Below the pieces are notes generated by a model. It saw nothing but the letters and a program-made list of their open reading frames with translations. It was not told where the DNA came from and did no database searches. A stretch of DNA of 64,000 bases from an uncultured Chlamydiales bacterium. GTDB lineage: Bacteria; Chlamydiota; Chlamydiia; Chlamydiales; Rhabdochlamydiaceae. The stretch is taken from contig OY969554.1 of NCBI GenBank assembly GCA_963700985.1, positions 1,312,001-1,376,000 of the forward strand, read 5' to 3'. Shown here piece after piece: positions 49,948-57,034 of the stretch. A program made the translations under genes and the position numbers. The number at the start of each line of letters is the position of its first letter. Position 1 is the stretch's first letter.

Positions 49948-50053
49948 GAGTTCCTCCATTATTTATTTACAATATAAGGGATAAATCCGTTTTTCTTCTA
50001 GAGACAAATACGCTCCAAATGGTATTTTTTGTTCCCTATCTCAGTGTATTTCT

Positions 50054-50137
50054 GCGGCCATGGCGGAATTGGTAGACGCGCTAGATTCAGGTTCTAGTCA
50101 GGGCAACCTGGTGGATGTTCGAGTCATCTTGGCCGCA
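50054..50137 (+). tRNA. tRNA-Leu (anticodon CAG), CCA not encoded
   Basis: GCGGCCA/TGGCCGC acceptor stem, GGCGGAATTGGTAGACGC D arm, CTAGA-TTCAGGT-TCTAG anticodon arm, long variable arm, TTCGAGT T loop. Confidence 0.95.
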
Positions 50138-50195
50138 ATCCCCTCAAAGATCCAACATAAGCCTCCCATCCCTATATCTCCTCGAATATCTGAAC

Positions 50196-50469: not shown

Positions 50470-51099
50470 ATGACCCCGTTTTCGATTGCGCTGGTTGCAA
50501 ATGGAAAGATCTCAAAATCTAAATTACTTCTCGAAAAAATCAAGGCTTATCCCTACCTCATCGCCGTAGACGGCGGGCTCAATCACTGCCATAAACTTGG
50601 GCTTAAACCCAACCTGATTATCGGAGATTTAGACTCAGCCCAAAAGAAGATCTTGTCTTCATTCGAAGATGTCTTAAAGCAGGTTTTTCCCGTTGATAAG
50701 GACAAAACCGATCTAGAACTCGCTATTGAACATGCGCTTAAATTAGGCGCTAAGCGCTTAACTGTTTTTGCAGCTCTCGGCGGAAGGGTCGATCACACAC
50801 TCGTCAATATCCATCTCCTCTCTCGCTACCCTGGAAAACTTTTTTTTGAAACCGAAAATGAGCTGCTCTTTGTGATTGATAAAAGCGTCGAGCTAGCTTG
50901 CATGCCAGGACAGACTATCTCTCTTTTGCCCTTAAATGGCCCTGCCACAAGCGTGACTACCCAGGGTTTAAAATGGGAACTCTCGGAAGCCACACTCGAC
51001 AAGCACTTCATGGGAATTTCTAATATCGCCCTTCAAAACAAGGTGCGTATCCAAGTCGCTCATGGCAACCTTCTATGTATACTTCTTAGCACTCCTTGA
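50470..51099 (+). CDS. thiN: Thiamine pyrophosphokinase
   Basis: IAVDGG, IIGDLDS, KDKTDLELAI, GGRVDH, GLKWEL, GISN. Confidence 0.93.
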   Translation: MTPFSIALVANGKISKSKLLLEKIKAYPYLIAVDGGLNHCHKLGLKPNLIIGDLDSAQKKILSSFEDVLKQVFPVDKDKTDLELAIEHALKLGAKRLTVFAALGGRVDHTLVNIHLLSRYPGKLFFETENELLFVIDKSVELACMPGQTISLLPLNGPATSVTTQGLKWELSEATLDKHFMGISNIALQNKVRIQVAHGNLLCILLSTP

Positions 51100-51221
51100 A
51101 ATTAACTCAGCTTTAATTATATAATAAAATTTATAATAACAAATTTAAAGAAAATATATTAGTTTAGATTTATTATATTACCAGAGATAATATCGCCCGT
51201 TTATAACAAAAAGGATAATAA

Positions 51222-52175
51222 ATGAGTGCTGTTTCGAAAGCGATTTTAAGTAGATATACTTCGTTTTTTCCTTCTAAGTCAGAATGGGAAAGAGAAGCTG
51301 CAATCTATAGAGCAATTGAAGTGATCTGCAAGAAAATTGACCTCGTGGCAACTAGCCTATTTAAAGCCCGAGAGCTTCTCGAAAATCCGGCTAATTTGGT
51401 GATCTTTAAAAGCGTGACGCACTTGGATTTATCCAACTGTGGCCTCGAGCTTCTTCCTGATGAGCTGTTCAATTTAAGAGGCCTAAAAACCTTGAATCTC
51501 GCTCAGAACAAACTTGGAGATCTTTCTCCAGGAATTCGCGACCTCGCTGATTTAGAAGTGCTCCAATTAGAACGCAATCCTCTAGAATCATCCCAAATTC
51601 ACGAAATTGCGTGCATTTTGCTTGAACTTCCCAGCTTGAAACAGTTCTCTTCTGATTGCCAATCACTCATCGATATGTATCATGAGGAACGTATTCAAAG
51701 CCGAGCTATTTGTAGAGCTTGGGAGCAAATTCGACCAGAACTTGTTTCTTGCCGTGATCTTGTATACATAATCCGCAAAGTTCCTCAATTAGAATACCTC
51801 TTTAAGCTCGCCACTCCCCATTCTCGCGAGATAAGCAGAACACTTAATCTCTGTAAGCTGTACTTTCACCTTTCTTTTGATAGGATACGTAAACTTTCAC
51901 TTGAAAGATTGAATCTACAATTTTTCCCGCCTGCCCTTTGCTGCCTAAGAGAACTTCGAGAGCTAGATCTTTCACACAATCTTTTTGATAAAGTTCCTCG
52001 AGAAATAGAGGCTTTTGGAAAATTGGAGACTTTAAGCTTAGTGGATAACCCCCTTCCTACAAGACAACTTGGAAGTATCGAGAAAAAACTGAAAGCAGCC
52101 ATGCCAAGTTTAAAAGAGGTCTCTTTACCCACTGTAAGAGATCAAACTAGATCTTCGGCCTGCATCATCATGTAA
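51222..52175 (+). CDS. Leucine-rich-repeat protein with C-terminal CaaX (CIIM)
   Basis: LxxLxLxxNxL repeats in two blocks; ends SACIIM*. Confidence 0.85.
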   Translation: MSAVSKAILSRYTSFFPSKSEWEREAAIYRAIEVICKKIDLVATSLFKARELLENPANLVIFKSVTHLDLSNCGLELLPDELFNLRGLKTLNLAQNKLGDLSPGIRDLADLEVLQLERNPLESSQIHEIACILLELPSLKQFSSDCQSLIDMYHEERIQSRAICRAWEQIRPELVSCRDLVYIIRKVPQLEYLFKLATPHSREISRTLNLCKLYFHLSFDRIRKLSLERLNLQFFPPALCCLRELRELDLSHNLFDKVPREIEAFGKLETLSLVDNPLPTRQLGSIEKKLKAAMPSLKEVSLPTVRDQTRSSACIIM

Positions 52176-52215
52176 GTGGAAATCCGGTTTAAATTTAACA
52201 ACTAATAGGCAACAA

Positions 52216-53190
52216 ATGGCAGCAATCTCTGATGCAGTGTACTGGATAGACGCAGGTTACATCGTTGCTATGACCGAAGATGAGAAAGAGGATGCGCGCC
52301 ATCGGGCTATCCTCAAGATCTGGGAAAATATCCAGTCGCAGTTCGAATTTCCAATAGTTGTAAAAGATACAAAGCTGGCATTAGCCCTTCTAAAAGAAGA
52401 AAGAAATTTCCCGACTTTTACGTCCGTTACGCAACTGAATTTATTTGGCGCGGGGCTCCCGTTTCTTCCTAATGAGACATTCAACTTATGCTCTCTTAAA
52501 AGCCTAAATCTCGCTGGTAATGCGCTCCTCGATCTGCCACCTCGTATCACTAGGCTTCAACAACTGGAAGTGCTTAAGTTGGAGGGTAACCCCTTAAAGG
52601 CTCCTCAATATCAAAAAATTGCACGCATTTTATGTGAATTTCCTAACTTGCACACCTTCACGCATCATAGCCAATTACTCATGGACACATACGATGCAGA
52701 AAAGGCTCAAAGCTTAGCTATTTGTAGAGCTTGGGAACAAATTCGCCTCGAACCCGATCAATCTGATGATCTCGATTGTAAATCATTCGATCTTCAATTA
52801 GATAAGCTCTTCAATGGAGCCACACCCACTCCTAGCCAGATACGCGAAGCACTAGAGATGTGTCGGAAACAGTTTCCCAGCGCACTTACTAGCATACGCG
52901 AGCTTTCCCTTAGGGCATTGAGATTACAAACATTTCCTCCTGAGCTACGTTGCTTAAAGATGCTTCAAGAGTTAGATCTTTCGCGGAATCTATTTTCGGA
53001 AGTTCCAAAAGAAGTATACGAATTTAAAGAGCTAAAAACTTTGAAATTAGCGCAGAATCCCATTCCTGCAAGCCGGCATAAAGGCATCGTGAAAGAACTT
53101 AAATCTGCTCTACTAAAGATTGAAGAGGTACATCTGCCAGTAGTGCCAAAAAGAGATCAAACTAAATCCACTGTTTGCGTCATTATGTAA
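52216..53190 (+). CDS. Leucine-rich-repeat protein with C-terminal CaaX (CVIM)
   Basis: Paralog of the previous gene; ends TVCVIM*. Confidence 0.85.
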   Translation: MAAISDAVYWIDAGYIVAMTEDEKEDARHRAILKIWENIQSQFEFPIVVKDTKLALALLKEERNFPTFTSVTQLNLFGAGLPFLPNETFNLCSLKSLNLAGNALLDLPPRITRLQQLEVLKLEGNPLKAPQYQKIARILCEFPNLHTFTHHSQLLMDTYDAEKAQSLAICRAWEQIRLEPDQSDDLDCKSFDLQLDKLFNGATPTPSQIREALEMCRKQFPSALTSIRELSLRALRLQTFPPELRCLKMLQELDLSRNLFSEVPKEVYEFKELKTLKLAQNPIPASRHKGIVKELKSALLKIEEVHLPVVPKRDQTKSTVCVIM

Positions 53191-53217
53191 TCCGATTTCT
53201 TAAAGAATGGAGGCAAA

Positions 53218-54273
53218 ATGGCAGCAATTTCAGGCAAAGAGAGACGGATAACTACATTTGAGGTGGAACCATCTGCACTTTTGCGTTCGCAAAGAGAATT
53301 TGAACTGAAAGAAAGGTTGCGTTTTCAAGCTATTGCCGCAATCTGGAAAAAGCTCGAGTTTGAATACCCAATCGTGGTAAAAAAAGGCGCGAGACAGATG
53401 CTAAGCCTCATTGGAAACCCAGAAAACTTTCCAACTTTTAAGCACATCACAGCATTGAATCTATCCAACTTAACGCTACCTCTCATCCCAGATGAGCTAT
53501 TCGTTGGGCTAAAAAATCTTAAAACCTTAAATCTCGCAGGAAATGCGCTTCACGATCTTCCCGAAACCATCACCTATCTCACTGAATTGGAAACGCTCCA
53601 ACTTGAGAATAGTCCCCTTACTCAGCTTCAAAACGTCATTCGTCTTCTATGTGCACTGCCTAAATTGCAAAAACTTACACATCACAGCGAAATATTCGCC
53701 GCCGCTTTCAAAGCTGAACAAAATCTCCGTGCAGCCAAAAAAATTGAAGGTCTAGCTATTTGTAATGCGTGGGAACAGATTAGACGCACCCTTTTAGGCT
53801 ACCCTCCACTTAAGAAAACCATTGCCAGTAACCCCGCATTAAAAGCCATGTTAGAGGGTCCGTTTGAAGCTGATCCCGTTAATGCTTATGATTCATTAAA
53901 AAAATGCCAGCAATATCCTTCTAATCCGCTTGATTGCGTGCGTGAGCTCTCTCTCAAAGGACAGGAATTACTGACCTTCCCCCCAGAACTTTGCTGCCTT
54001 CGCGAACTTCGCGCGTTAGATCTTTCACGTAATAAATTTCCTAGAATTCCTACTGGAATACTCCTCTTCAGGAATTTAGAGACTCTGATTTTAGACTATA
54101 ACCCCCTGACTTCGAGCGAATATGAAAGCGCCCGTAAAATGCTGATCGAAGCTCTACCTAGTTTAAAAAATGTGCGCTTTCTCGGGATTTTAGCGAGGAT
54201 TTCAGAGAAGGATGAACACAAAGAAGATCAAACTCCTGACGCTGCAGTCGAAGCTAAAGAACATAAAACTTAA
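53218..54273 (+). CDS. Leucine-rich-repeat protein lacking CaaX
   Basis: Same two-block architecture; charged tail ending EAKEHKT*; GGAGG SD. Confidence 0.85.
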   Translation: MAAISGKERRITTFEVEPSALLRSQREFELKERLRFQAIAAIWKKLEFEYPIVVKKGARQMLSLIGNPENFPTFKHITALNLSNLTLPLIPDELFVGLKNLKTLNLAGNALHDLPETITYLTELETLQLENSPLTQLQNVIRLLCALPKLQKLTHHSEIFAAAFKAEQNLRAAKKIEGLAICNAWEQIRRTLLGYPPLKKTIASNPALKAMLEGPFEADPVNAYDSLKKCQQYPSNPLDCVRELSLKGQELLTFPPELCCLRELRALDLSRNKFPRIPTGILLFRNLETLILDYNPLTSSEYESARKMLIEALPSLKNVRFLGILARISEKDEHKEDQTPDAAVEAKEHKT

Positions 54274-54308
54274 TAGAACCTGTAAATTAAAAAATAACGG
54301 AGAAAATT

Positions 54309-55466
54309 ATGGCTCACGTATCAGACGCTGCTGTTAGAGGGCATTCACTCCTCAATCGAAGGGCCTCAACAGCCTATGCTGAATTTGCGGCTCCCGCCCC
54401 AAGAAGTGGCTCACACAAAGACGACCATAAAGTGGATGGACCCTCGGAAGCTGATCGAGAAAGATCTATTAAATTTATCTGGGAAAAATTCGAATCTCAC
54501 ATCAACCCTCCAATCCCCGTAAAAGATGGTAGCGAAATGCTCGCAGCGCTCAGAAACCCTGAAAATTTGGCAGCGTTTGCAAAAGTAACTGAGTTAGACC
54601 TTTCAAGTTTTGCTGCTTTCAATTTGAATTTCCGATGTCTCCCGATAGAACTATTTGAGCTCCCTCTCGCTTCTTTAAAGTTAATCGGCCCTGAGGCACT
54701 GGTCATTCCTGATGAACTCTGTAAGCTCGACAAGCTTAAAGTGCTTATTGCTCGCGGCCTTAGTCTTCAAGCTCTCCCCAAAGGAATCGCCCTGCTTCCT
54801 AGACTAGAACATCTAGATCTAAGATTTAATTTGCTCACCAAAAAAGCTTGCAAAGCCGTGGCACGAGCGTTAACTGACATCCCAAGCTTAAAATCCGTCT
54901 TATTCGATACTGAGCGTGGGGAAAAAGATGTTGCTTTTGCTAATGAAAGAGCAAAATCTAATGCTTTGGTGAGAGTGTGGAAGGAACTAGGCGATTTTAT
55001 CGGTGGAAATGAGGCTTGGCAAAAGGCGGTCGAGAGCAATTCTTTGCTAAGAGAAATCTATAGCAATCCTCAGCCGCGCCCTTCACAACTTCGTTCATTT
55101 TTTAATACATGCTTTAAAGAAAGGATCTATTGTTTTGATTCCATTCTCAAGCTAGACCTTAACGGTCTGGACTTAACGACGATCCCGGCTGAATTACGCT
55201 GTCTTCGTAAGGTGCAAGTAATTACTCTTTCTAACAATCGAGTTTCTGATGAAACCATCCCTCTAGATCCCCAAGAAATCCTAGCCCAATTTCAAGAATT
55301 AGTTGTACTCGATCTACGGGGTAATGATATCCCAGCAGAAGAAAATGCTGAAATCCGTAAAAAATTGCTTACGATATGTAAAAAACTTAAAACCATCCAT
55401 TTCCCAAAGGATGACCCGGTACCACAGAGAAATCAATCTCGCTCTATTGCCTGCATAGTCATGTGA
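54309..55466 (+). CDS. Leucine-rich-repeat protein with C-terminal CaaX (CIVM)
   Basis: More divergent paralog; ends IACIVM*; GGAG SD. Confidence 0.85.
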   Translation: MAHVSDAAVRGHSLLNRRASTAYAEFAAPAPRSGSHKDDHKVDGPSEADRERSIKFIWEKFESHINPPIPVKDGSEMLAALRNPENLAAFAKVTELDLSSFAAFNLNFRCLPIELFELPLASLKLIGPEALVIPDELCKLDKLKVLIARGLSLQALPKGIALLPRLEHLDLRFNLLTKKACKAVARALTDIPSLKSVLFDTERGEKDVAFANERAKSNALVRVWKELGDFIGGNEAWQKAVESNSLLREIYSNPQPRPSQLRSFFNTCFKERIYCFDSILKLDLNGLDLTTIPAELRCLRKVQVITLSNNRVSDETIPLDPQEILAQFQELVVLDLRGNDIPAEENAEIRKKLLTICKKLKTIHFPKDDPVPQRNQSRSIACIVM

Positions 55467-55529
55467 GTTTGGATTATATAGCCCTCTATGTTAGGTTTAT
55501 TATTGTCGTCTAAAAATAGGAGACGTTTT

Positions 55530-55682
55530 ATGAAAGGAAAATTTCTTTTAGCTCTACTAGCAGGACTTTTTGCAACAAGCTTCATTACCCCTAGCAATGA
55601 CTGTGGAAGTTGCGGCGGCAAAGGAAATCATTCAGAATCTCTTCTGGATGGAAGCTGCGATAGATGCAAAAAAGGTCGCTAG
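55530..55682 (+). CDS. Small exported Cys-rich peptide (two CxxC)
   Basis: AGGAG SD, signal-like MKGKFLLALLAGLFATS, CGSC and CDRC. Confidence 0.55.
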   Translation: MKGKFLLALLAGLFATSFITPSNDCGSCGGKGNHSESLLDGSCDRCKKGR

Positions 55683-55695
55683 AAAATAGAGGCTT

Positions 55696-56364
55696 TTAAG
55701 GCGGGGTGCCTTGTGCCCCCGCTTCATACCATTGACGCAATGCTGTTAAAGAACTTGCAATCTGCTGAGAAAAGGCCTCTTGAGCCTCTTTCTTTGCCAG
55801 ATGTGCGAATGCATCGTAACGAATTGGCGAACCAAAAACGCTAGCCGTTCTACCTGAGAATCTGGGAAATTTCTGGAAGCGACTCCAAATCTTAAAAGTT
55901 CCGTGAATATATAGCGGTTGAATGAACGCTCCGGTGCGCGAGATGAGTAACGACATGCCCGGCTTGATCTCTTCTAATTGATCGCTGCTTTCACGCGTAC
56001 CTTCTGGAAACAAGAGGACTTTCTTGCCTTCTTTCAACAATTGGCAGATGAGTTTAAAAACTGCCACATCGCCCGTGTCTCCACGTACGGGATGGGCGTT
56101 GAGCGCGCGAATTAGGTTACCGAAAAGGGGAAATCTAAAAAGCGAGTCGCGCGCGAGAAAATGCACCTCTTCGGGAGAGGAGATAGCTCCGATGGGAGGA
56201 TCGTAAAACGAGGCATGATTGGCCGCAATGATCGCTCCACCGGGCGCGAAATTCTCAATTCCATAGACTTGATGTCGATAGAAAAGCTTAAAATACCCCT
56301 TGGCCATTGCCAAAATGGTGCGATAAAGCAGGTTCCCTTTGCTGAATTCACTCTCTTCTTGCAT
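55696..56364 (-). CDS. plsC: 1-acyl-sn-glycerol-3-phosphate acyltransferase
   Basis: NHASFYDP, FPEGTR. Confidence 0.93.
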   Translation of the reverse strand: MQEESEFSKGNLLYRTILAMAKGYFKLFYRHQVYGIENFAPGGAIIAANHASFYDPPIGAISSPEEVHFLARDSLFRFPLFGNLIRALNAHPVRGDTGDVAVFKLICQLLKEGKKVLLFPEGTRESSDQLEEIKPGMSLLISRTGAFIQPLYIHGTFKIWSRFQKFPRFSGRTASVFGSPIRYDAFAHLAKKEAQEAFSQQIASSLTALRQWYEAGAQGTPP

Positions 56365-57034
56365 GGCCTTTCTTCTCCGCATATTCCAGAATCAAAGTTA
56401 CTACTTGATCGATTGAAAGATTAGAAGTATCAACTCGAAAAGCGTCTTTAGGACAGATCAATGGCGCATGTTCACGGGTTGAATCGATCTCATCACGCTT
56501 TATGATCTCTTCTAACATCTTCTGATGATCAAGCGTTTGTGCGAGCTCAGGATTCTTAGCGATTAATTCTTCAAGCCGCCTTTTGGCACGCACTTCAGGC
56601 GCTGCGGTTAAAAAAATCTTAAGTTCAGCATTCGGAAAAATGACGCTTCCCATATCTCTGCCTTCAAAGACGGAGTTTCCATGAGCCGCGAAGGTGCGTT
56701 GGATTTTGCCAAGAGCGTTACGTATTGGTAGCAAAGCCGCGACTTCAGAAACACGCGCGGTGATTTCGCGCGAGCGAATGACCTCTGTTACTTCATCTTT
56801 GCCCACAAAATAGCGTTTATTTTTGTTCTCTTCTGTGATGCGAAATGAAAAATTCTCTAGGAGCTTTTCAATTGCAGGAAGATCTTTTAGATCGGTTCCA
56901 CTTTGCAGAATCAGCCAGGTAACTGCACGATACATAGCGCCGGTATCGAAGTAAGCAAAATGTAAGCGCCCAGCCACAGTTTTTGCCACCGTGGTTTTAC
57001 CCGTCCCTGCTGGTCCATCGATGGTGATGATCAT
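56348..57034 (-). CDS. cmk: Cytidylate kinase
   Basis: IDGPAGTGKTT, DTGAMYRA, EGRDMGS. Confidence 0.97.
   Translation of the reverse strand: MIITIDGPAGTGKTTVAKTVAGRLHFAYFDTGAMYRAVTWLILQSGTDLKDLPAIEKLLENFSFRITEENKNKRYFVGKDEVTEVIRSREITARVSEVAALLPIRNALGKIQRTFAAHGNSVFEGRDMGSVIFPNAELKIFLTAAPEVRAKRRLEELIAKNPELAQTLDHQKMLEEIIKRDEIDSTREHAPLICPKDAFRVDTSNLSIDQVVTLILEYAEKKGHARRE

What the first reader, a model, noticed from the sequence alone, without database searches (positions are those of the whole stretch)
51222..55466. Tandem array of LRR proteins carrying Ras-type CaaX farnesylation motifs: candidate host-prenylated effector family
Seen: four co-oriented paralogous LRR genes inserted between housekeeping thiN and plsC after an AT-rich spacer. 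Three end in R[DN]Q[TS][RK]Sxx-CaaM immediately before the stop (RDQTRSSACIIM, RDQTKSTVCVIM, RNQSRSIACIVM), although the protein bodies are strongly diverged. Established: CVIM and CIIM are the C-termini of K-Ras4B and K-Ras4A, X=Met directs eukaryotic farnesyltransferase, bacteria are not known to carry CaaX prenyltransferases, and Legionella AnkB and Salmonella SifA exploit host prenylation. Inference: these are secreted proteins that the host farnesylates to anchor an LRR interaction surface on host or inclusion membranes, possibly near Ras-family GTPases. I know of no characterised LRR-CaaX effector array in chlamydiae, but I cannot check the literature here.
Basis: partly seen in the sequence, partly recalled or inferred. 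Interest (0 to 1): 0.85.

Follow-up and report, generated by a model that had tools for sequence, protein, structure and literature searches.

The report
Chlamydial LRR proteins with prenylation tails
An uncultured soil chlamydia carries a row of four leucine-rich-repeat genes, three ending in the same four-residue tag that eukaryotic cells use to fasten Ras proteins to membranes, and they belong to a genome-wide set of about 14 such proteins that the bacterium most likely injects into its host to be lipid-anchored there.

Summary
Four co-oriented LRR paralogues lie between thiN and plsC. Three end exactly in CIIM, CVIM and CIVM; the third gene has lost the tag.

It is far from chance. Of 1792 ORFs in the 2.07 Mb genome, 13 end in a canonical CaaX against 1.1 expected, or 14 counting CVIV. 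CVIL is the commonest C-terminal tetrapeptide. The tags sit on at least five unrelated families: LRR, MORN, GNAT and two unknown.

The tag is kept where the tail before it diverges. Both syntenic genes of a congener and one metagenomic relative end in CIVM. The modelled tail is disordered. No prenyltransferase alpha-subunit repeat or ICMT was found in the genome, and a type III export-gate gene is present. CIIM, CVIM and CVIL are proven substrates of human prenyltransferases (PMC11152559).

Best reading (about 0.7): injected effectors lipidated by the host, as with Legionella AnkB and Salmonella SifA. Secretion and prenylation are untested, and nothing supports a Ras link. No report of chlamydial CaaX effectors turned up in my searches.

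The parts
50053..50138 (+). tRNA-Leu(CAG), upstream neighbour of thiN (context)
   Evidence: ARAGORN
50470..51099 (+). Thiamine pyrophosphokinase (thiN), conserved left flank
   Evidence: Pfam TPK_catalytic 1.8e-27 and TPK_B1_binding. Syntenic in 12 chlamydial loci.
51100..51221 (+). AT-rich spacer (17% G+C) holding the best promoter-like site (51096-51125, 11 of 12 matches)
   Evidence: The number of promoter-like sites in the region is not above shuffles, so this is weak.
51222..52175 (+). LRR paralogue 1, 317 aa, ends CIIM (codons 52161-52172)
52216..53190 (+). LRR paralogue 2, 324 aa, ends CVIM (codons 53176-53187). Modelled as two three-repeat LRR blocks joined by helices, with residues 1-16 and 312-324 disordered.
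   Evidence: Contigs of run X1 cover 53112-53407 without a difference.
53218..54273 (+). LRR paralogue 3, 351 aa, CaaX lost. The tail reads EDQTPDAAVEAKEHKT: the Cys position is replaced and the frame runs four residues further.
54309..55466 (+). LRR paralogue 4, 385 aa, ends CIVM (codons 55452-55463). It is the orthologue of the two congener genes and of P0092.
55696..56382 (-). PlsC-type acyltransferase, conserved right flank
   Evidence: Pfam Acyltransferase 9e-21; synteny

Best explanation
The three CaaX-ending LRR proteins are effectors. So are about ten further CaaX-ending proteins elsewhere in the genome.

Inferred mechanism: the chlamydia exports them, most likely through its type III system, into the cytosol of its eukaryotic host. 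There the host's own farnesyltransferase (tails CIIM, CVIM, CIVM) or geranylgeranyltransferase I (tails CVIL, CAIL) attaches an isoprenoid to the Cys. Host Rce1 and ICMT then finish the tail, and the lipid pins the small two-block LRR binding surface to a host or inclusion membrane.

Shown: the motif is real, strongly enriched, positioned exactly at the terminus, recurs on unrelated families, is conserved across species, and sits on a disordered tail. No prenyltransferase alpha-subunit repeat or ICMT was found in the genome.

Inferred: export, prenylation and the target membrane.

The farnesyl-type LRR tails have no upstream Cys and only 1 to 3 basic residues. By the recalled two-signal rule for Ras proteins, that predicts endomembranes rather than the plasma membrane.
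For: (1) Enrichment. 13 of 1792 ORFs end in C[AVILM][AVILM][MSQACLF] against 1.10 expected (P 2e-10). CVIL is the commonest C-terminal tetrapeptide (8, the next has 4), and 8 of its 10 occurrences anywhere are terminal. Cys is found 45 times at -4 against 18 to 31 at the other last-12 positions. The shift control gives 0 to 2 against 14.

(2) Independent families. The tags sit on six LRR, four MORN, one GNAT, a pair of unknown family and one orphan.

(3) Conservation. Of 7 distinct members of the window's family, 6 end in C[IV][IV]M: genes 1, 2 and 4, two syntenic genes in congener G003, and P0092. This holds despite branch lengths of 0.46 to 1.03 changes per column and unalignable linkers. 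The 40 nt that encode the tail are among the best-kept DNA between the paralogues, at 80% and 73%. The MORN orthologue pair L011/L112 (72% identical) ends CAIL/CVIL. The LRR pair L006/L103 (38% identical) both end CVIL. Of 5 congener genes matched by L009, 4 end in CaaX: CAIL, CVIL, CVIL and CVVQ.

(4) Tail context. In the AlphaFold model (pLDDT 81.8, pTM 0.77) residues 312-324 have pLDDT below 50.

(5) Second signals. 6 of 14 have another Cys at -10 to -5, against 132 of 1792 overall (Fisher 2.6e-4). All six are in the X = L class.

(6) Not membrane or Sec proteins. 13 of 14 have no 19-residue hydrophobic stretch above 1.6, against 36% of the proteome.

(7) Enzymes. No PPTA repeat and no ICMT in a genome that is 99% complete. 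One FHIPEP export-gate gene is present at 747 bits.

(8) Substrates. [quoted passage not shown] CVIL was completely geranylgeranylated by human GGTase-I. CVVM was farnesylated (PMC11152559, passages).

(9) Accessory character. The array is an insert in a conserved thiN-plsC junction. CaaX genes average 43.0% G+C against 45.2% for the rest (P 0.004), and their N-termini are richer in Ser+Thr (0.205 against 0.143, P 0.017).
Against: No experiment and no RNA data exist for this organism. Export and lipidation are wholly inferred, and no T3SS-signal predictor was available.

The tag is not universal. Gene 3 lacks it. A database protein 99% identical to gene 2 (P0001, 314 aa) stops at PKID without it. 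One of 5 congener genes matched by L009 lacks it. None of the 3 distant homologues of the unknown-family protein L004 has it.

CIVM and CAIL were not among the sequences I found tested in PMC11152559.

The search for the prenyltransferase beta subunit (PF00432) rang in no control genome, so it shows nothing.

Paralogues are not independent, so the Poisson figures overstate. About five independent families is the fair count.

The N-terminal composition signal is weak.
Confidence: 0.7

Rival explanations
1. The genes, or their tails, came from a eukaryote by horizontal transfer, and the CaaX is an inherited relic. The proteins stay in the bacterium or are exported, but the tag does nothing.
For: LRR and MORN are eukaryote-rich repeat types. 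[quoted passage not shown] The tag is lost in gene 3, in P0001 and in some homologues. CaaX genes have slightly lower G+C.
Against: A relic would decay. Instead the four residues are kept while the adjacent linker diverges beyond alignment, and the tag recurs on five unrelated families in one genome. No close eukaryotic homologue was found: the best eukaryotic hit is 25% identical and generic LRR, and the atlas neighbours are generic LRR clusters from bacteria and eukaryotes alike.
Confidence: 0.1
2. The C-terminal Cys motif serves the bacterium itself. It could be a recognition site for the genome's own Rce1-like (CPBP) membrane proteases, or a terminal Cys for disulfide cross-linking in the chlamydial envelope.
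For: G000 has six Rce1-like genes. So does G003, the congener with the next-largest CaaX set. Most relatives have 1 to 3. Recalled, not tested: chlamydial envelopes are rich in disulfide-linked Cys-rich proteins.
Against: CPBP genes are in 40 of 41 genomes of the order searched, whether or not those genomes show CaaX enrichment, and G008 also has six. Eukaryotic Rce1 acts only after prenylation (recalled), and no PPTA repeat or ICMT was found here. Disulfide chemistry does not explain why the three residues after the Cys match prenyltransferase rules so exactly. The proteins have no signal peptide-like or membrane segment that would take them to the envelope.
Confidence: 0.07
3. The bacterium prenylates these proteins itself with an unrecognised enzyme.
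For: Prenyltransferase-domain proteins are reported in another chlamydia (10.1101/2024.11.28.625222, passages). The beta-subunit search here was uninformative.
Against: No PPTA repeat among 52 scored candidates in a 99% complete genome, and no ICMT.
Confidence: 0.03
4. Chance coincidence of C-terminal residues.
For: None beyond the small size of a four-residue motif.
Against: 13 observed against 1.1 expected. The shift control gives 0 to 2. The tag is conserved in orthologues.
Confidence: 0.01

Closest known systems
Legionella pneumophila CaaX effectors (AnkB, the Pel proteins, LseA)
   Same: Bacterial proteins with eukaryote-like domains that end in a CaaX box. Host enzymes farnesylate or geranylgeranylate them, which anchors them to host or vacuolar membranes. 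The tag is strain-variable: AnkB of strain Paris lacks it. There are several per genome: two analyses of four isolates each found 11 (PMC3417404, passages; PMC7542358, passages; PMC4951486, passages).
   Different: Different phylum and secretion system: Dot/Icm type IV there, presumably type III here. There is no sequence relation. The domains here are LRR and MORN rather than F-box/ankyrin, SNARE-like and the like. The density is higher here, at 13 to 14 in 1792 ORFs. Nothing here has been tested.
Salmonella SifA and GtgE
   Same: Type III effectors with a C-terminal CaaX of the geranylgeranyl type. GtgE ends CTIL. SifA also has an S-acylated Cys next to it, like the upstream Cys in six of the CVIL/CAIL proteins here (PMC4951486; PMC13423502; passages of each).
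   Different: Single effectors with unrelated folds and known enzymatic or adaptor functions, not a paralogous LRR array. They have been shown experimentally.
K-Ras4A, K-Ras4B and N-Ras C-termini
   Same: The tetrapeptides are identical: CIIM for K-Ras4A, CVIM for K-Ras4B, and CVVM for N-Ras (CVVM is also seen in congeners G001 and G004). They sit on a flexible tail (PMC11152559, passages).
   Different: No GTPase domain, no polybasic stretch (1 to 3 basic residues in the ten before the Cys) and no palmitoylatable Cys in the farnesyl-type tails. The resemblance is to the address label only.
Entamoeba histolytica BspA-like LRR proteins with a CAAX box
   Same: LRR proteins that end in CAAX, in an amoebozoan (PMC2843621, passage citing earlier work).
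   Different: They are eukaryotic proteins of the TpLRR/BspA repeat type. The window proteins match the canonical LRR_8, LRR_4 and LRR_1 models. No homology was shown.
Chlamydial Inc proteins
   Same: Both are ways for a chlamydia to place proteins on the cytosolic face of the inclusion membrane (recalled for Inc proteins).
   Different: Inc proteins use a bilobed hydrophobic domain (recalled). 13 of the 14 CaaX proteins, all three of the window among them, have no hydrophobic stretch above the threshold.

Membership tests
Host-prenylated bacterial CaaX effectors (functional class) | Cys-aliphatic-aliphatic-X as the last four residues, followed directly by the stop codon | tested here: met
   CIIM, CVIM and CIVM in 3 of the 4 window genes. 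The DNA 15-mers were confirmed.
Host-prenylated bacterial CaaX effectors (functional class) | The tetrapeptide is accepted by eukaryotic FTase or GGTase-I | tested here: inconclusive
   From the literature only. CIIM, CVIM, CVIL and CVVM were modified in a humanised yeast reporter (PMC11152559, passages). I found no test of CIVM or CAIL there. PrePS-type predictors were not available.
Host-prenylated bacterial CaaX effectors (functional class) | Flexible, accessible linker before the Cys | tested here: met
   Residues 312-324 of gene 2 have pLDDT below 50 in a model with mean pLDDT 81.8. The linkers are polar and rich in Ser and Thr.
Host-prenylated bacterial CaaX effectors (functional class) | Delivered into the host cytosol by a secretion system | not testable with these tools
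   One FHIPEP export-gate gene is present. Residues 1-16 are disordered. Ser+Thr at the N-terminus is mildly raised. 13 of 14, including all three window proteins, have no hydrophobic stretch above the threshold. There is no direct evidence.
Host-prenylated bacterial CaaX effectors (functional class) | Isoprenoid attached in host cells, and Cys-dependent membrane localisation | not testable with these tools
   This needs a cell-biological or biochemical assay.
Host-prenylated bacterial CaaX effectors (functional class) | The bacterium lacks its own CaaX prenylation machinery | tested here: inconclusive
   No PPTA repeat and no ICMT. The beta-subunit model rang in no control genome. Six Rce1-like CPBP genes are present.
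Leucine-rich repeat proteins (Pfam LRR_8, LRR_4, LRR_1) | Significant match to LRR profile models, and a solenoid of beta-strand/helix repeats | tested here: met
   The model shows two blocks of three repeats each. The two halves are 31% identical, E 1e-9.
NEL/IpaH-SspH or XopL-type LRR type III effectors | LRR domain fused to an E3 ligase domain (NEL or XL-box) | tested here: not met
   Only LRR families appear among the Pfam hits, apart from one 0.088 sub-threshold hit. XopL LRR appears only as a generic fold match at TM 0.20.
SHOC2-like Ras-scaffold LRR proteins | A long continuous LRR solenoid that binds M-Ras and PP1C | tested here: not met
   TM-score to SHOC2 chains is 0.21-0.26, with rmsd above 10 A. 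There are only 2 x 3 repeats here.
Chlamydial Inc proteins | Bilobed hydrophobic membrane domain | tested here: not met
   The maximum 19-residue Kyte-Doolittle mean is 1.05-1.43 for the three window CaaX proteins.

The most novel reading that the evidence does not exclude
One genus of soil Rhabdochlamydiaceae has built a two-class lipid address system for its effectors. The first class is farnesyl-type CxxM tails without a second signal, carried by four LRR proteins (three in the window array, plus L009). The second is geranylgeranyl-type CVIL/CAIL tails, two thirds of them with an extra palmitoylatable Cys, on LRR, MORN, GNAT and unknown proteins.

The tags make up about 0.75% of the proteome, close to the 1-2% quoted for eukaryotes. 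That would be the densest CaaX repertoire I found reported for a bacterium. It would also be an Inc-independent route by which a chlamydia decorates inclusion or host membranes.

The tandem array would then be a diversifying set of membrane-tethered binding modules. Gene 3 would be a soluble or decaying copy.
Probability: 0.5. Interest if true: 0.75.

Novelty: new member of a known kind. Interest (0 to 1): 0.64.

Why it matters
Host-mediated prenylation of bacterial effectors is established for Legionella and Salmonella. I found no report of it for Chlamydiota, whose known way of anchoring proteins to the inclusion membrane is the Inc hydrophobic domain.

A chlamydia with 13 to 14 CaaX-tagged proteins of two prenyl classes would show that this mimicry evolved independently in a third lineage of intracellular bacteria, and at a density near that of eukaryotic proteomes.

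It would also give a simple sequence rule, enrichment of C-terminal tetrapeptides, for finding effectors in the many uncultured chlamydial genomes where predicting effectors is hard.

The tails themselves are directly testable in any eukaryotic cell, without culturing the organism.

Tried and rejected
Word-indexed homologue search with gene 2. It found only the protein's own cluster and four generic LRR hits. The paralogues were not returned, so it says little.

The search for related loci with the family alignment. 72 pattern matches, none confirmed.

Profile search of 1.84 billion representatives. 110,845 hits at E of 0.001 or better, nearly all generic LRR. Of the best 150, only 6 are single-stretch near-full-length matches: five from G000 or G003, plus P0092.

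Foldseek against the PDB and the ESM Atlas gave generic LRR matches only, with no functional lead.

CVIL-stop DNA pattern over 151 genomes of the order. G000 (10 hits, control 1) and G004 (13, control 1) stood out. The G004 excess proved to be an intergenic repeat that happens to contain TGCGTAATTCTTTGA, not gene ends, so that signal was rejected.

CxxM-stop pattern over 61 genomes of the family. G000 has 6, the others 0 to 3. Of 16 loci fetched from other genera, only 1 (L143 in G013, 322 aa, ends GGGGGGCIIM) is a real ORF end.

L002 orphan. No homologue in five congeners. The tool notes that an empty answer shows nothing.

RNA evidence. No RNA holder is listed. Only soil and wood-decay DNA contigs were found, and laying them confirmed the sequence but cannot show expression.

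Prenyltransferase beta-subunit search. It rang in no control genome, so it is uninformative.

The search of earlier findings was not open. The Al-Quadan 2011 screen is not held.

PMC3486916 mentions CAAX only for a protease, so it is not relevant.

Full report
**1. The observation**

One search finds four co-oriented ORFs at 51222-52175, 52216-53190, 53218-54273 and 54309-55466. They are 317, 324, 351 and 385 aa long.

- Genes 1, 2 and 4 end in RDQTRSSACIIM, RDQTKSTVCVIM and RNQSRSIACIVM, with the stop codon directly after.
- Gene 3 ends in EDQTPDAAVEAKEHKT.
- All four match Pfam LRR models. They are paralogues, 46, 39 and 32% identical to gene 1.
- The flanks are thiamine pyrophosphokinase and a PlsC-type acyltransferase.
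- A 122-nt spacer with 17% G+C precedes gene 1. The gaps between the genes are 40, 27 and 35 nt.
- That spacer holds the best promoter-like site, and no terminator-like site lies between the genes. This consensus scan is weak evidence, though, because the number of sites does not exceed shuffles.
- A DNA alignment of the four 3' ends shows that gene 3 lost the tag by substitution: the Cys position is replaced and the frame runs on four residues.

**2. Organism and locus**

- The window lies in a single-contig genome of 2,067,302 bp with 44.8% G+C, rated 99% complete.
- The nearest thiN loci in public genomes carry record titles that name Rhabdochlamydiaceae, Rhabdochlamydia or Chlamydiales.
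- The only sequencing runs that hold the array are soil DNA, plus a small share in wood-decay DNA.
- I examined 12 chlamydial thiN loci. Only L042, from congener G003, has genes between thiN and the cmk-plsC gene.
- In L043-L049 thiN is followed by plsC or cmk-plsC with no ORF of 150 aa or more between them. L051 has one unrelated ORF there. L050, L052 and L058 have other neighbours.
- None of the 11 has an LRR-motif or CaaX-ending ORF.

The array is therefore a lineage-specific insertion into a conserved junction. It has two genes in G003 and four here.

**3. Is the CaaX more than chance?**

I called ORFs of 100 aa or more over the whole genome and removed those mostly overlapped by longer ones. 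This left 1792 ORFs covering 91% of the genome.

- Cys occurs 45 times at position -4, but only 18 to 31 times at each of the other last twelve positions.
- CVIL is the commonest C-terminal tetrapeptide (8; the next has 4). Of the 10 CVIL anywhere in the proteome, 8 are terminal.
- A canonical CaaX ends 13 ORFs against 1.10 expected from its internal frequency. With X = M or L only, it is 13 against 0.36. Counting CVIV, it is 14 against 1.27.
- Sliding the same pattern 1 to 8 residues inward gives 0 to 2 hits.
- Paralogues are not independent, so the honest unit is the family. BLAST and Pfam group the 14 into five families:
  - six LRR proteins: three in the window, a tandem pair L009/L010, and L006;
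  - four MORN-repeat proteins;
  - one GNAT;
  - one pair of unknown family;
  - one orphan.
- One further LRR paralogue (gene 3) and one MORN paralogue lack the tag.

Five unrelated families carrying the same terminal signal in one small genome is the strongest single argument that the signal is selected.

**4. Conservation**

- A profile of the four window proteins was searched over 41 related genomes. It found full-length relatives only in G000 and G003.
- The two G003 genes sit in the same slot, and both end in CIVM.
- A profile search of 1.84 billion representative proteins added one more member, P0092 (335 aa), which also ends in CIVM.
- In a maximum-likelihood tree, gene 4 groups with P0092 and the G003 pair (support 100/98). 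Genes 1 to 3 form their own clade (97/97). So the array grew by duplication in this lineage.
- Six of the seven distinct members keep C[IV][IV]M. Terminal branches are 0.46 to 1.03 changes per column, and the linker before the Cys cannot be aligned between the clades.
- Within the window, the 40 nt that encode the tail are among the best-conserved DNA between paralogues.
- Other families behave alike. L011 and its G003 orthologue (72% identical) end CAIL and CVIL. L006 and its orthologue (38% identical) both end CVIL. Four of five congener genes matched by L009 end in CAIL, CVIL, CVIL and CVVQ.

Against this:

- Gene 3 has lost the tag.
- A database protein 99% identical to gene 2 stops ten residues early, at PKID. 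Short-read contigs of run X1 agree with the window at that place.
- One L009 homologue lacks the tag, and so do all three distant homologues of L004.

The tag is thus an add-on that can be gained and lost. The same is described for Legionella AnkB (PMC7542358, passages).

**5. Structure and context of the tail**

- An AlphaFold model of gene 2, built from the six-member alignment, has mean pLDDT 81.8 and pTM 0.77.
- It shows two blocks of three LRRs, each followed by a capping helix, joined by a helical linker.
- Residues 1-16, 183-190 and 312-324 are disordered.
- The two halves are internal duplicates, 31% identical with E 1e-9.
- Foldseek finds only generic LRR proteins with TM-scores of 0.19 to 0.28: Leptospira LRR proteins, SHOC2, internalins and LRRC8. 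The fold therefore gives no clue to the partner and no support for a Ras link.
- Thirteen of the 14 CaaX proteins lack any hydrophobic stretch typical of membrane or Sec-exported proteins.
- The four CxxM tails have no further Cys, and 1 to 3 basic residues in the ten before the motif.
- Six of the ten X = L/V proteins have a second Cys at -10 to -5. Overall that is 6 of 14 against 132 of 1792 in the proteome, Fisher 2.6e-4.
- From recalled knowledge of Ras and Rho proteins, such a Cys is the usual palmitoylation 'second signal'. A farnesylated tail without one stays on endomembranes.

**6. Who would do the chemistry?**

- The genome has no PPTA (prenyltransferase alpha-subunit) repeat and no ICMT.
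- The beta-subunit search was uninformative.
- The genome does have one FHIPEP export-gate gene of the type III family.
- It also has six Rce1-like CPBP proteases. That family is in 40 of 41 genomes of the order searched, so its presence is not specific.
- In a humanised yeast reporter, CIIM (K-Ras4A) and CVIM (K-Ras4B) were fully modified by human FTase and also by GGTase-I. CVVM (N-Ras) was farnesylated. CVIL was completely geranylgeranylated by human GGTase-I (PMC11152559, passages).
- I found no test of CIVM or CAIL there.

**7. Distribution**

- The CVIL-stop DNA pattern over 151 genomes of the order singled out G000 and G004.
- The G004 signal is an intergenic repeat, not gene ends.
- Within the genus, the pattern hits that are real ORF ends of 80 aa or more number six in G003, three in G004, one each in G001 and G005, and none in G002.
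- Those that Pfam recognises are again LRR or MORN.
- The CxxM-stop pattern over 61 genomes of the family gives 6 in G000 and 0 to 3 elsewhere. Only 1 of 16 loci fetched from other genera is a real ORF end.
- Among the genomes searched, the repertoire is concentrated in this genus and is largest in this genome.

**8. Comparison with what is known**

- Host prenylation of CaaX-ending effectors is established for Legionella AnkB, the Pel proteins and LseA, and for Salmonella SifA and GtgE (PMC4951486, PMC3417404, PMC7542358 and PMC13423502; passages only).
- Two analyses of four Legionella isolates each found 11 such proteins. A screen of 17 pathogens found 54 proteins in 14 species (PMC3417404, passages). 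The screen itself is not held, so I could not see whether it lists chlamydiae.
- I ran these searches:
  - CaaX with chlamydia, prenylation and effector: 30 papers, 20 listed.
  - CaaX with Waddlia: 4 papers.
  - CaaX motif with four environmental chlamydial genera: none of the 15 listed holds the motif term.
  - Rhabdochlamydia with prenylation terms: none of the 15 listed holds the genus name.
  - CaaX with chlamydia, leucine-rich repeat and secreted: 9 papers.
- None gave a title or passage describing chlamydial CaaX effectors.
- The nearest item is a preprint reporting prenyltransferase-domain proteins in another chlamydia (10.1101/2024.11.28.625222, passages). That is the converse situation.
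- LRR proteins with a CAAX box are noted in Entamoeba (PMC2843621, passage).
- Prenylated proteins are put at 1-2% of yeast and human proteomes (PMC10541624, start of abstract in the listing). Here the share is 13 to 14 of 1792, about 0.75%.

**9. Verdict**

- The mechanism it points to is a known kind, here in a new phylum and on new protein families. I therefore rate it a new member of a known kind.
- The inference rests on sequence statistics, conservation and a structural model. Export, lipidation, target membrane and binding partner are all untested, and the organism is uncultured.
- Confidence that the tails work as host prenylation signals on exported proteins is about 0.7.

Noticed in passing
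G000:C1, outside the window: L001-L011 (119360-119791, 363237-363743, 393470-394279, 417154-417882, 418270-419007, 529146-530003, 711723-712508, 716691-717461, 1254401-1255585, 1255636-1256904, 1896443-1897423): Eleven further CaaX-ending ORFs: three LRR, four MORN, one GNAT and three without a Pfam match. Eight end in CVIL, and one each in CAIL, CVIM and CVIV. Six have a second Cys just upstream.
   Followed up: partly
G000:C1:660838-661122, 894446-894709, 1275509-1275820, 1707560-1707847, 1754346-1754684, 1919315-1919599: Six Rce1-like (CPBP, PF02517) genes in a 2.07 Mb genome. G003 and G008 also have six, and most of the 41 relatives searched have 1 to 3. Whether this relates to the CaaX set is unknown.
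   Followed up: partly
G004 loci L090, L095, L100, L109, L111, L117: An intergenic repeat of the form TGCGTAATTCTTTGA followed by two short GC-rich hairpins (GCGCGAAGCGC..., GGCGCTTTGCGCC) recurs downstream of unrelated genes. It mimics a CVIL-stop signal in DNA pattern scans.
   Followed up: partly
window 55488-55682 (+): A 64-aa ORF lies between the array and plsC. It has a hydrophobic N-terminal stretch and a Cys-rich tail (CGSCGG...CDRCKKGR). It has no Pfam match and was not examined further.
   Followed up: no
P0001 (database protein, 314 aa): A variant 99% identical to gene 2 ends at PKID, ten residues short and without the CaaX. A variant of gene 1 (P0010) keeps CIIM. This could be strain variation or an assembly frameshift; I could not tell which.
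   Followed up: partly
L143 (G013:C40), ORF 926-1894: In another genus of the family, a 322-aa protein without a Pfam match ends in six glycines followed by CIIM. It looks like an independent CaaX tail.
   Followed up: no
L042/L013 (G003), L049, L051: In these relatives cmk and plsC are one fused ORF of 441-449 aa. In the window they are separate ORFs that overlap by 35 nt (56348-57034 and 55696-56382).
   Followed up: no
G000:C1:1623951-1624310: An LRR match with one in-frame TGA, possibly a decaying LRR paralogue.
   Followed up: no
window 50053-50138: A tRNA-Leu(CAG) lies just upstream of thiN. In several relatives the long ORF call for thiN begins inside the same tRNA (MAELVDALDSGS...), which is an ORF-calling artefact.
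   Followed up: no
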